Origin: Escherichia phage EC6 | Strand: one strand, 5' to 3' | Sequence record: JX560968 | DNA: 64,000 bases | Shown: piece after piece, positions 10,354 to 11,769 of the stretch | Layout: each line of letters starts with the position of its first letter | Numbering within the stretch: the first letter of the stretch is position 1 | Notes under the pieces: generated by a model | The model's database searches: none | The model's input: only the letters and a program-made list of their open reading frames with translations | What the model was told of the DNA's origin: nothing | Translations under genes and position numbers: made by a program

Positions 10354-11769
10354 ATGAGCGAATTATTTAAACATGCGCACCTTCATGCAGGTCGAACTGA
10401 AAATGGTGCTGTAAACCATACTTCATCAATGTCTTCTCTGGTAGACTTCTACAAAGCCGCTGGCTCAAGCCGTAGCAATGTAGAAATCTTACCAGACCTG
10501 TTCTACAAAGCTTTGCGTGAGGATGTTGATGTTGCAGTTCGTATTTTGCTTCACATGCGAGATGTACGAGAAGGTATGGGTGAGCGTAAAGCCTTCAGAA
10601 CTGTTTTACTTCAAGCAATCGAAGATAAAGTTTTAGAGCCTACACAGGTTCTTCGTATTATGGATAAGATTGCAGAACTTGGTCGTTTTGATGACTTCAA
10701 AATCTTCGTAGGTACTCGTTTTGAGACAGATGCCTTCAAACATTTAGAAGCAGCATTACTAGACCCTGAAACAGCAGGTTTAGCAGCCAAGTGGCTACCA
10801 CGAGTAAAACCACGCCACAAACAGTTTGTAAAACGTTTCTGTAAGTTTGCAAACTTAAGCGAGAAAGAGTACCGCACACTGTTATCTGCATTGTCTGATA
10901 CGGTTGAGCAAAAAATCTCTGCTAATGAGTTTGGTAAGATTGACTACAGCAAGATTCCTTCACTCGCTGCTGCACGTTACCAAAAACTCTTTAACCGTAA
11001 AGATGGAGAACGCTACAAAGCTTACATTGAGTCCTTATCAAAAGGTGAGACTAAGATTAACGCTGGTGCTGTTTACCCATACGATGTGATTAAGTCTATC
11101 AAGCATGGTAATGCAGATGTTGCTAATGAGCAGTGGAAAGCACTACCAAACTGGATGGCAGAGGGTGAAAACATCTTGTGTATGACTGATGTCTCAAGCT
11201 CAATGTCTTGGGTGAATCTTGGCTCAATCACTGCCATTGATATTGGTGTATCCCTTGCCTTGTATGTAGCAGAACGTAATACGGGTTGCTTTAAGAATGA
11301 GTTGATGGTTTATTCAACAAACCCTCATTTCATCGAACTGAGTGGTGATTTGAAAAACCGTCATCGTCAGGTGATGCGTCATGTTGAATATGGCTCAACT
11401 AACTTACAAGCAGCTTTTGACCGTATTCTTGAGACAGGTAAGAGAAACAACTTGACTCAGAAAGATATGCCAAGTAAGCTTATCATCTTCTCTGATATGG
11501 AGTTCAATCAGGTTGATGGTGCAAATGGTCGTACAAACTTTGAAGCAATTCGTAGTAAGTACGAAAAAGCTGGATATGAGATGCCACAACTGGTATTCTG
11601 GTACTTAGCAAACCGTAATGGTACTTGCGAAGTGTCTGTTAAGGATAACGGTGTAGCAATGGTATCTGGTTTCTCTCCAGCCACTTTAAAAGCTTTGCTT
11701 GGTGGTGAGAAGTTTGACCCAATCAGCGTAATGCTCAAAGCAGTAATGATTGACCGTTATATCTGGTAA
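10354..11769 (+). CDS. vWA-domain protein (471 aa) with N-terminal alpha-helical domain
   Basis: MIDAS-like motif D-x-S-x-S (CMTDVSSSM) opening a predicted Rossmann-like C-terminal domain; immediately upstream of the tRNA cluster. Confidence 0.55.
   Translation: MSELFKHAHLHAGRTENGAVNHTSSMSSLVDFYKAAGSSRSNVEILPDLFYKALREDVDVAVRILLHMRDVREGMGERKAFRTVLLQAIEDKVLEPTQVLRIMDKIAELGRFDDFKIFVGTRFETDAFKHLEAALLDPETAGLAAKWLPRVKPRHKQFVKRFCKFANLSEKEYRTLLSALSDTVEQKISANEFGKIDYSKIPSLAAARYQKLFNRKDGERYKAYIESLSKGETKINAGAVYPYDVIKSIKHGNADVANEQWKALPNWMAEGENILCMTDVSSSMSWVNLGSITAIDIGVSLALYVAERNTGCFKNELMVYSTNPHFIELSGDLKNRHRQVMRHVEYGSTNLQAAFDRILETGKRNNLTQKDMPSKLIIFSDMEFNQVDGANGRTNFEAIRSKYEKAGYEMPQLVFWYLANRNGTCEVSVKDNGVAMVSGFSPATLKALLGGEKFDPISVMLKAVMIDRYIW

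What the first reader, a model, noticed from the sequence alone, without database searches (positions are those of the whole stretch)
10354..11769. vWA/MIDAS-domain protein encoded immediately upstream of the tRNA array
The 471-aa protein has an alpha-helical N-terminal domain and a C-terminal vWA fold with the metal-binding motif DxSxS (TDVSSSM). This resembles Ro60/TROVE-type RNA-binding proteins, which pair with tRNA-like Y RNAs, and phage DUF-type vWA proteins of unknown function. The position next to the tRNAs and the unresolved tRNA-like RNAs makes an RNA-handling or anti-defence role worth testing. The family assignment is from memory, not a search.
Basis: inference. Interest (0 to 1): 0.5.

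Follow-up and report, generated by a model that had tools for sequence, protein, structure and literature searches.

The report
Phage Ro60-like ring protein with RNAs
The gene encodes a Ro60-like ring protein that is 99% identical to one already reported to protect a related phage from the bacterial Ppl defence, and the new lead is a previously unreported family of small structured RNAs, four in this window, that sits next to this gene in very different phages and may be the protein's RNA partners.

Summary

What I add is contextual. Across 75 divergent viral loci, 35 have tRNA or tmRNA genes within 8 kb, all 282 on the gene's strand. A small RNA motif (closing stem, NUA-CAGCAA, variable insert, complementary strand, UG) accompanies the gene in 51 of 77 divergent loci. 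It also appears in 8 of 8 cultured lineages that were not used to build the model. It is absent from T5's tRNA region and from Rfam. The window has four copies (12104-12882). One carries a permuted tRNA-like module like YrlA Y RNAs. Binding of these RNAs to the protein is inferred, not shown.

The parts
10285..10314 (+). Sigma-70-like promoter (TTGACA, 18 nt, TAAAGT) preceded by an A/T tract (TTTTAAAAGG), about 40 nt upstream of the start codon. The same A/T tract plus TTGACA recurs at 11788 and 11879, ahead of the tRNA array.
   Evidence: Consensus scan and direct reading of the sequence. Function is inferred; the scan found no more sites than in shuffled sequence.
10354..11769 (+). Ro60-like ring protein gene (471 aa). 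It has an N-terminal helical solenoid (Pfam DUF2828) and a C-terminal vWA/MIDAS domain (Pfam DUF7788), and is the ortholog of Bas63 gp130.
11188..11202 (+). Codons for the MIDAS motif D279-x-S281-x-S283. T349 and D381 complete the metal site.
   Evidence: These residues are invariant columns in alignment A1.
11934..17190 (+). Array of 25 tRNA genes on the same strand, interrupted by small RNAs and a few ORFs.
   Evidence: ARAGORN and Rfam.
12104..12170 (+). Unit U1 of the CAGCAA-stem RNA family. It fills the 85-nt gap between tRNA-Glu and tRNA-Met.
   Evidence: Model R2: 43.5 bits, E 2e-7. Exact 19-nt frame AGAAGACCGATTACAGCAA. Fold.
12265..12330 (+). Unit U2. It fills the 85-nt gap between tRNA-Met and tRNA-Asn.
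   Evidence: Model R2: 46.9 bits, E 3e-8. Model R1: 40.1 bits.
12660..12733 (+). Unit U3, with stem AGACCAA/TTGGTCT, which is compensatory relative to U2 and U4.
   Evidence: Model R2: 41.4 bits, E 8e-7.
12745..12882 (+). Unit U4. It has the same closing frame (stem 12750-12757/12868-12875, CAGCAA at 12760-12765) around a circularly permuted tRNA-like module: anticodon-like arm 12781-12797, T-arm 12802-12818, closed acceptor-like hairpin 12819-12836, D-arm 12839-12853. In this window the T-arm carries a private C-to-A change at 12814.
   Evidence: A homolog in L030 scores 50.5 bits (E 4e-9) with compensatory stems.

Best explanation
The ORF encodes a phage Ro60-like ring protein: a helical solenoid closed by a vWA/MIDAS domain. 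It appears to be transcribed from its own sigma-70-type promoter at the head of the tRNA region. Shown here: the fold, the family assignment and the orthology. Shown by others in the 99%-identical Bas63 gp130: it neutralises the host Ppl defence, and does so on its own in the unrelated phage T7. Ppl is described in a 2026 review as an ssDNA 3'-to-5' exonuclease triggered by nucleotide depletion and by 3'-OH ends made by phage homing endonucleases. Inferred: canonical Ro60 takes single-stranded 3' ends into its central hole, so the ring most likely blocks Ppl by capping 3' ends. Alternatively, it binds Ppl directly through its MIDAS face. Also inferred, from comparative genomics only: during a normal infection the protein is the partner of small CAGCAA-stem RNAs (U1-U4, 12104-12882). 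These would be co-transcribed with the tRNAs and released by tRNA-processing enzymes. They would act like Y RNAs on Ro60, gating or tethering the ring.
Against: There is no sequence-level match to Pfam TROVE or VWA or to any PDB sequence, even with a profile. No experiment shows that this protein binds any RNA. gp130 alone rescues T7 on Ppl hosts, so the anti-Ppl activity does not need U1-U4. Rfam's YrlA model does not match the window or the Bas63 element. Fold z-scores are modest (-1.4 to -2.0). The window's U4 has a broken T-arm pair. In the window the units lie 335-1100 nt from the gene, behind two tRNAs, and not directly next to it. In 26 of 77 divergent loci no unit was detected at E<=0.01. 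The 3'-end-capping mechanism is pure analogy. The Ppl-counter result comes from a preprint.
Confidence: 0.65

Rival explanations
1. The protein is purely a protein-level anti-defence inhibitor. It blocks Ppl by direct protein-protein contact or by capping DNA ends and has no dedicated RNA partner. On this reading the CAGCAA-stem units are unrelated neighbours, for example processing or stability signals of early transcripts, or cis-regulatory elements of the gene's own mRNA.
Against: The whole-protein match is to an RNA-binding ring and not only to vWA domains. The units follow the gene across phages of Proteobacteria, Campylobacter, Fusobacterium, Firmicutes and Actinobacteria, whose hosts have different transcription and processing signals. 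They occur in tandem sets of 2-8 and also far from the gene, abutting tRNAs. Some carry a YrlA-type tRNA-like module.
Confidence: 0.25
2. The protein's main job is RNA quality control or repair for the phage's own tRNAs, like cellular Ro60/Rsr. The ring would bind misfolded, nicked or unprocessed phage tRNAs and hand them to nucleases or ligases. The Ppl phenotype would then be a secondary effect.
For: The gene is linked to tRNA arrays on the same strand in many lineages. In Listeria phage WIL-1 it is followed by genes that depositors name HD-domain protein, 'tRNA splicing ligase' and RNA ligase. In a marine lineage it sits with a phage tmRNA, ClpP and DnaJ. Phage phiLo Ro60 with its Y-like RNAs binds and attenuates host PNPase (PMC12135203). 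gp130 improves T7 plating even without any defence.
Against: RNA-repair genes are not recurrent neighbours across lineages. 40 of 75 divergent loci have no tRNA within 8 kb. Ppl is described as a DNA exonuclease, not an RNase. Nothing here tests tRNA binding.
Confidence: 0.2
3. U4 is a degenerate or truly circularly permuted tRNA gene, and U1-U3 are remnants or spacers left by duplication within the tRNA array. The RNAs would then have no link to the protein.
For: U4 contains all four tRNA arms in permuted order. Rfam's tRNA model partly matches it at 22 bits. tRNA arrays do accumulate pseudo-tRNAs, such as the D-armless tRNA-Arg-like element at 13506-13588.
Against: The closing frame and CAGCAA motif are conserved in phages with no tRNA nearby (25 of 41 such loci) and in units with no tRNA-like insert. 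T5's array, which is rich in tRNAs and stable RNAs, lacks the motif. The 426-nt gap is almost invariant among Felix O1-like phages, which is unlike decaying DNA.
Confidence: 0.07
4. The protein is a vWA/MIDAS co-chaperone or a virion structural protein, as some depositors label it ('putative structural protein', 'DNA packing and replication protein').
For: Depositor labels. MoxR-vWA chaperone pairs exist in jumbo phages (PMC7824862).
Against: There is no adjacent AAA+/MoxR gene. The gene sits in the early region at the head of the tRNA array, with a sigma-70-type promoter. The full-length fold match is to Ro60. The labels carry no evidence.
Confidence: 0.03

Closest known systems
Bas63 (Escherichia phage JohannRWettstein) gp130 / bas63_0130, the PhageMaP anti-Ppl counter-defence protein (PMC11482910)
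   Same: It is 465/471 identical, has the same length, and has the same position between bas63_0129 and tRNA-Pro. It was already described as structurally Ro60-like and as lying directly upstream of the tRNAs.
   Different: Nothing of substance differs at the protein level. The preprint suggested that some annotated tRNAs might be Y RNAs. My analysis points instead to unannotated elements between the tRNAs. In Bas63 these are overlapped by small minus-strand CDSs 0137 and 0138.
Ro60 / Rsr (TROVE + vWA ring proteins) with Y RNAs, including phage phiLo Ro60 with Yrl1/Yrl2 (PMC12135203) and bacterial Rsr with YrlA/YrlB (PMC4201824)
   Different: Sequence identity is only 11-16%, and Pfam TROVE does not match. 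The conserved RNA motif is NUA-CAGCAA followed by a 3' UG, not GNCGAAN0-1G or GGUCCGA. Rfam YrlA matches below its gathering score in three lineages and not at all in the window. The RNAs are often embedded in tRNA arrays. The one tested activity (anti-Ppl) concerns a DNA exonuclease and needs no phage RNA.
Stable RNAs of unknown function in phage tRNA clusters (T5 RNAI, RNAIII, RNAIV, RNA1, RNA2, RNA2H, RNA3, RNAX)
   Same: They are small RNAs, some tRNA-like, interleaved with tRNA genes and presumably released by tRNA processing.
   Different: T5 has no family member of this protein (the Escherichia phage counts match) and no match to the CAGCAA-stem model on its tRNA strand.

Membership tests
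Pfam DUF2828 + DUF7788 / PHROG 850 ('RNA-binding protein'; SEA-PHAGES 'Ro-like RNA binding protein') | Matches to both Pfam HMMs above their gathering scores, and a full-length match to the PHROG profile | tested here: met
   DUF7788 scores 148 bits (cutoff 27.1) and DUF2828 scores 102.8 bits (cutoff 29). phrog_850 matches at 1e-183 over residues 1-471.
Ro60/TROVE family | Sequence match to the TROVE domain (Pfam PF05731) or to a solved Ro60 sequence | tested here: not met
   There is no TROVE hit at E<=1. There is no PDB sequence hit with the single sequence or with a 44-sequence profile at E<=10, apart from a chance match to ribosomal protein S21.
Ro60/TROVE family | Full-length fold: a helical-repeat ring closed by a C-terminal vWA domain | tested here: met
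Ro60/TROVE family | Binds Y RNA on the outer surface and single-stranded 3' ends in the central cavity | not testable with these tools
   This needs RIP/CLIP, EMSA or a solved structure.
vWA/MIDAS domain | A complete metal-ion-dependent adhesion site, DxSxS...T...D, on a Rossmann-like alpha/beta fold | tested here: met
YrlA Y RNA-like (Rfam RF02553) | Score at or above the Rfam gathering threshold (69 bits) | tested here: not met
   There is no hit at E<=1 in window 9000-19000, none at gathering level in the whole window, and none at E<=10 on the Bas63 copy. Relatives score below gathering: LeBron 39.8, L024 39.2 and L075 26.7 bits.
YrlA Y RNA-like (Rfam RF02553) | A permuted tRNA-like domain (T-arm, then acceptor-like hairpin, then D-arm) enclosed by stems formed from the 5' and 3' ends | tested here: met
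   The unconstrained MFE fold of the Bas63 copy shows exactly this. The same layout is seen in 16 units from distinct lineages. In the window copy the T-arm is weakened by C12814A.
YrlA Y RNA-like (Rfam RF02553) | Encoded within about 4 kb of the Ro60 gene on the same strand (criterion of Chen et al. 2014) | tested here: met
   U1-U4 lie 335-1113 nt downstream of the stop codon on the + strand.
YrlA Y RNA-like (Rfam RF02553) | The 5' motif GNCGAAN0-1G | tested here: not met
   The conserved 5' motif is NUA-CAGCAA instead. A GGCGAAG string in U4 overlaps the T-stem and is not at the 5' end.
Anti-Ppl counter-defence (Bas63 gp130) | Orthology to the tested protein | tested here: met
   99% identity with no gaps and the same neighbourhood. 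The activity itself was tested only in Bas63 and T7, by others.

The most novel reading that the evidence does not exclude
DUF2828-type Ro-like proteins, present in at least 708 sequenced phages of Gram-negative, Gram-positive and actinobacterial hosts, have their own previously unreported class of Y-like partner RNAs. These RNAs have a G-C-closed stem, a single-stranded NUA-CAGCAA motif, a variable insert (plain, with repeated GCAA, or a permuted tRNA-like module) and a 3' UG. They are often placed between tRNA genes, so that RNase P and RNase Z would cut them out. If so, this would assign a function to some of the long-unexplained 'stable RNAs' of phage tRNA clusters. It would also define a phage-wide Ro/Y-type RNP tied to counter-defence.
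Probability: 0.5. Interest if true: 0.8.

Novelty: new variant of a known kind. Interest (0 to 1): 0.6.

Why it matters
The protein result by itself changes little, because its Ro60-like fold and its anti-Ppl role are already published for a 99%-identical ortholog.

The associated RNA family matters more, for four reasons:
- It turns the preprint's open guess ("some tRNA genes are possibly Y RNAs") into specific candidates with coordinates that can be tested.
- It suggests that a large phage protein family, annotated inconsistently as hypothetical, vWFA, DUF2828 or RNA-binding, works as an RNP.
- It offers a handle on the function of Ro60/Y RNA systems in a genetically tractable phage-host pair where a clear phenotype already exists (small plaques on Ppl hosts).
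- It flags unannotated RNAs that current phage annotations overwrite with spurious small CDSs or mis-set start codons.

Tried and rejected
- **Sequence searches against solved structures.** The single sequence and a 44-sequence profile found nothing useful.
- **NCBIfam.** Only noise.
- **Literature on DUF2828 and DUF7788.** Only incidental mentions in plant and other papers.
- **A Felixounavirus transcriptome search.** It returned nothing relevant.
- **Rfam scans for Y RNA or YrlA in the window.** Negative.
- **The one strict orphan T-arm in the window (13560-13576).** I first suspected it was a Y-like RNA. It is a D-armless tRNA-Arg(UCU)-like element in normal arm order, with a fold z-score near 0, so I rejected it as a YrlA candidate.
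- **A shared protein partner.** Clustering neighbouring ORFs from 75 loci gave only lineage-specific families (ClpP, DnaJ, RNase HII, Mom-like, metallopeptidases) and no recurrent RtcB, ligase or kinase.
- **The bare 7-mer ACAGCAA.** It is not enriched window-wide (21 found against 15 expected). Only the full frame and its clustering are significant.
- **My first loose motif scan.** Its background was too high to interpret (604 hits on the + strand, 434 on the - strand, 253 in shuffles). I replaced it with the fixed-geometry test and with covariance models.
- **A profile-profile comparison against a TROVE alignment.** I did not run it, because no TROVE sequence was in hand and two structural methods already agreed.

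Full report
**1. The observation**

The ORF at 10354-11769 (+) is present as described: 471 aa with an ATG start. ARAGORN finds 25 tRNA genes at 11934-17190, all on the + strand. The first starts 164 nt after the stop codon. The 'TDVSSSM' stretch gives D279-x-S281-x-S283. In an alignment of 44 relatives reaching down to 41% identity, D279, S281, S283, T349 and D381 are invariant, which is a complete MIDAS site. The gene has a sigma-70-like promoter with an upstream A/T tract at 10285-10314. The same tract plus TTGACA recurs at 11788 and 11879, ahead of the tRNAs. That reading is by consensus only, because the scan found no more sites than in shuffled sequence.

**2. What the genome and the protein are**

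The window is a Felix O1-like myovirus (Felixounavirus). The gene is 98.2% identical in DNA to Escherichia phage JohannRWettstein (BASEL phage Bas63). It is present in 249 phage records by megablast, under names ranging from 'hypothetical' to 'RNA-binding protein', 'DUF2828 family protein' and 'vWFA protein'.

- Pfam gives DUF7788 (residues 275-455, 3e-43) and DUF2828 (2e-29). Neither TROVE nor any VWA model is hit at E<=1.
- PHROGs gives a full-length match to phrog_850, 'RNA-binding protein' (1e-183).
- Sequence searches against PDB chains find nothing, even with a profile.

The family is large. More than 2,600 relatives were found in the protein collection. By tblastn, 708 phage records carry it, including Vibrio, Aeromonas, Campylobacter, Listeria, Staphylococcus, Enterococcus, Bacillus and Mycobacterium phages. 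SEA-PHAGES labels the mycobacteriophage members 'Ro-like RNA binding protein'.

**3. Fold**

An AlphaFold2 model built on the 44-sequence alignment is confident (mean pLDDT 89.7, pTM 0.89). It is helical over residues 1-265 and alpha/beta over 274-465.

- Foldseek against the PDB returns only full-length Ro60/TROVE proteins as its top 12 hits: Xenopus and human Ro60, Deinococcus Rsr, and Thermus phage phiLo Ro60. E-values run from 4e-8 to 1e-6, TM reaches 0.65, and identity is 11-16%. Isolated vWA domains come next, at E>1e-3.

**4. What was already known**

The protein is 465/471 identical to bas63_0130, with the same neighbours. The PhageMaP preprint (PMC11482910) reports several things about this gene.

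- Deleting gene 130 shrinks Bas63 plaques on a host carrying the Ppl defence, and complementation reverses this.
- It lies directly upstream of the tRNAs, some of which 'are possibly Y RNAs'.
- gp130 expressed alone from a plasmid, or inserted into T7, rescues T7 on Ppl hosts. It even improves plating beyond the no-defence control.

A 2026 review describes E. coli Ppl as an ssDNA 3'-to-5' exonuclease. It is released from NTP inhibition when phage deplete nucleotide pools, and it is triggered by 3'-OH ends made by phage homing endonucleases (PMC12904381). Other papers mention Ro60-like proteins in jumbo and Vibrio phages and in mycobacteriophages. A true TROVE-type phage Ro60 (phiLo) binds two Y-like RNAs and attenuates host PNPase. 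The protein finding is therefore real, correctly interpreted, and already published.

**5. Is the tRNA neighbourhood meaningful?**

I fetched 75 loci from uncultivated viral genomes whose proteins are only 39-47% identical to this one.

- 35 loci have a tRNA or tmRNA within 8 kb, 19 within 1 kb and 13 within 500 nt. All 282 such RNA genes are on the gene's strand.
- Several clearly separate lineages show the adjacency.
- 40 of the 75 loci have no tRNA nearby, so the link is frequent but not obligatory.
- Cultured phages repeat the pattern. Klebsiella KP13-16 has 13 tRNAs downstream. In Pseudomonas Milchi the gene sits inside an array. Campylobacter F370 has three tRNAs upstream, Bacillus Skywalker has 21 upstream, and Enterococcus phiSHEF13 also has tRNAs upstream. 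Listeria WIL-1 has 15 upstream, with depositor-named HD-domain, 'tRNA splicing ligase' and RNA ligase genes downstream.
- No protein-coding neighbour is shared across lineages. One marine clade has ClpP, DnaJ, RNase HII and a phage tmRNA nearby.

**6. A candidate RNA partner**

Rfam finds only tRNAs in the window. In mycobacteriophage LeBron, however, the family member gp53 is followed 125 nt downstream by a full-length, sub-threshold match to YrlA, the tRNA-like bacterial Y RNA (39.8 bits, E 1e-5).

I then scanned for T-arms outside the called tRNAs. This found 57 in the divergent loci, all on the gene's strand. Those next to the gene have the YrlA order: T-arm, self-complementary hairpin, D-arm. 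Rfam's YrlA model independently hits two of them, L024 at E 4e-5 and L075 at E 0.17.

Felix O1-like phages carry such a module in the 426-nt 'gap' between tRNA-Asp and tRNA-Lys. The window has it too, with one private C-to-A change at 12814 that breaks the last T-stem pair. The Bas63 copy folds without constraints into an 8-bp outer stem enclosing an anticodon-like arm, a T-arm, a 7-bp acceptor-like hairpin and a D-arm. Fold z-scores are modest, from -1.4 to -2.0. Rfam's YrlA model does not match it.

**7. The CAGCAA-stem family**

A covariance model of the Felix-type element (R1) found a homolog in L030, whose protein is 43% identical, at 50.5 bits (E 4e-9). Its outer stem, T-arm and hairpin are all compensatory. 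R1 also found shorter copies of the same outer frame in the window, at 12263-12334 and 12102-12174.

In the window:
- The 19-nt frame AGAAGACC-NNN-TACAGCAA occurs four times with no mismatch, at 12104, 12265, 12660 and 12747. That compares with 0.86 matches expected even when 3 mismatches are allowed.
- All four units fold alike. They have a 4-bp outer helix that covaries (UGAC/GUCA, UUAC/GUAA, GAGC/GCUC). Next comes an asymmetric internal loop (AGA opposite G) and a 7-8-bp helix. Single-stranded UACAGCAA and a variable insert follow.

Across 77 divergent loci:
- CAGCAA occurs at 1.35/kb on the gene's strand within 600 nt of the gene. Elsewhere on that strand it occurs at 0.35/kb, and on the opposite strand nearby at 0.18/kb.
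- 57% of the near sites have a complementary 6-bp stem at the fixed 3-nt spacing. In controls the figure is 27%, 15% and 6% (Fisher p 1e-8).
- 51 loci have such a unit on the gene's strand, against 4 on the other strand.

Features that I did not impose are conserved:
- A G follows the base after the 3' strand in 66 of 73 units.
- The spacer has U in 60 of 73 units.
- The 5' strand starts with G.
- RNAalifold adds a seventh pair that covaries: AU 20, UA 5, broken 3.

With model R2, built from 28 short units:
- It gives 80 hits at E<=0.01 over 1.2 Mb, all on the gene's strand.
- 41 of 77 divergent loci have a hit within 600 nt of the gene. That includes 25 of the 41 loci with no tRNA in the flanks.
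- 17 of the 21 distant hits lie within 100 nt of a tRNA or tmRNA.
- The T5 tRNA region has 25 tRNAs, eight annotated stable RNAs of unknown function, and no family member. It gives nothing on its tRNA strand.
- In the window, only U1-U3 and the 5' part of U4 are found.

As a prospective test I fetched eight cultured lineages that were not used for the model. All eight have hits (23 to 0 by strand), mostly stacked in the unannotated gaps beside the gene. Sixteen longer units from distinct lineages share the same order of elements.

**8. Mechanism**

*Shown here:* the fold, the family, the orthology, the tRNA linkage, and the existence and gene-linkage of the RNA family.

*Shown by others:* the anti-Ppl activity of the ortholog, and the fact that the protein alone is sufficient for it.

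*Inferred:*
- The ring blocks Ppl either by sequestering single-stranded 3' ends, as Ro60 does with RNA 3' ends (established knowledge from the Ro60 structures 1YVP and 2I91), or by binding Ppl through its MIDAS face.
- U1-U4 are its Y-like partners. The CAGCAA segment and closing helix would play the role that Chen et al. assign to GNCGAAN0-1G in YrlA and YrlB. Release would be by tRNA-processing enzymes.
- Homing endonucleases, which trigger Ppl, are common in phage tRNA arrays (seen in T5, GEP101 and Milchi). This may be a second reason why the gene sits there.

Because gp130 works alone in T7, the RNAs cannot be required for Ppl inhibition. If they bind, they more likely regulate or redirect the protein.

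**9. Verdict**

The protein part is already known. The system is best filed as a divergent variant of the Ro60/Y RNA kind. It fails the sequence-model tests for both TROVE and YrlA, but it matches both in architecture. The gene-linked CAGCAA-stem RNA family appears to be undescribed: Rfam 15 does not match it, and I found no paper on it. It is the part worth pursuing. I could not test its binding to the protein.

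Noticed in passing
window 13506-13588 (+): A non-canonical tRNA-like element. It has a 7-bp acceptor stem, an anticodon arm with UCU (Arg), a variable stretch of about 23 nt, a good T-arm and an encoded CCA, but no recognisable D-arm. ARAGORN does not call it, and Rfam gives only 23 bits to tRNA-Sec. GEP101 has the same sequence, while Bas63 has a canonical tRNA-Arg(UCU) at this site.
   Followed up: partly
window ~9932 (A-run), affecting 9902-10272 (+): Relative to Bas63 there is a 1-nt deletion in an A-run (A5 vs A6). It frameshifts the ortholog of bas63_0129, the small gene just upstream of the Ro-like gene, leaving a 76-aa ORF at 10042-10272. 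This could be a real pseudogene or a homopolymer sequencing error.
   Followed up: yes
window 12814: A private C-to-A substitution in the 3' strand of U4's T-arm (GAAGGTTCGATTACTTC). Bas63, GEP101 and L003-L007 all have C. It breaks the G-C pair that closes the T-loop and changes the MFE fold.
   Followed up: yes
window 12883-13015 (+): A long, stable hairpin (about 20-bp closing stem, -41 kcal/mol) directly after U4 and before tRNA-Lys. It encloses an ACAGACC...GCAAGUCUGG segment that echoes the unit frame. It is almost invariant among Felix O1-like phages.
   Followed up: no
window 11780-11811 (+): A 12-bp hairpin immediately after the gene's stop codon. It contains the -35 TTGACA of the next promoter-like site and has no T-run after it.
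   Followed up: no
L002 (Bas63) 8430-8582 and 8594-8704 (-); L087 (Aeromonas LAh_8) 2866: Probable annotation errors caused by the unannotated RNAs. Bas63 minus-strand CDSs 0137 and 0138 lie over U4 and the following hairpin. The LAh_8 DUF2828 CDS start overlaps two predicted RNA units. Listeria WIL-1 has about 25 tiny CDSs laid over its tRNA array.
   Followed up: partly
L084 (Listeria phage WIL-1) 4429-4980 (+): A full-length, near-threshold match to ROOL RNA (87 bits against a gathering score of 99.1; E 2e-16). It lies inside the phage tRNA array, about 1 kb upstream of the Ro-like gene.
   Followed up: no
L032, L034, L038, L045, L054: A marine phage lineage encodes its own tmRNA a few kb downstream of the Ro-like gene, together with ClpP, DnaJ and RNase HII homologs. 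This looks like a translation and protein quality-control gene cluster.
   Followed up: partly
L009, L010, L016, L019, L030, L032, L035, L041: ARAGORN repeatedly calls an unusually long (90-94 nt) tRNA-Ile with anticodon TAT in these phage arrays. Many further T-arms in these arrays belong to elements ARAGORN does not call, some with long insertions.
   Followed up: no
short units in L015, L017, L025, L027, L073 (e.g. L017 9406-9472): The A/U-rich interiors of many short units contain two further (A/C)GCAA repeats spaced about 12-16 nt apart. This suggests multiple binding sites per RNA.
   Followed up: no
L024 13696-13922 (+): A group I intron match above the gathering score (71.5 bits) in a viral contig near the tRNA array.
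   Followed up: no
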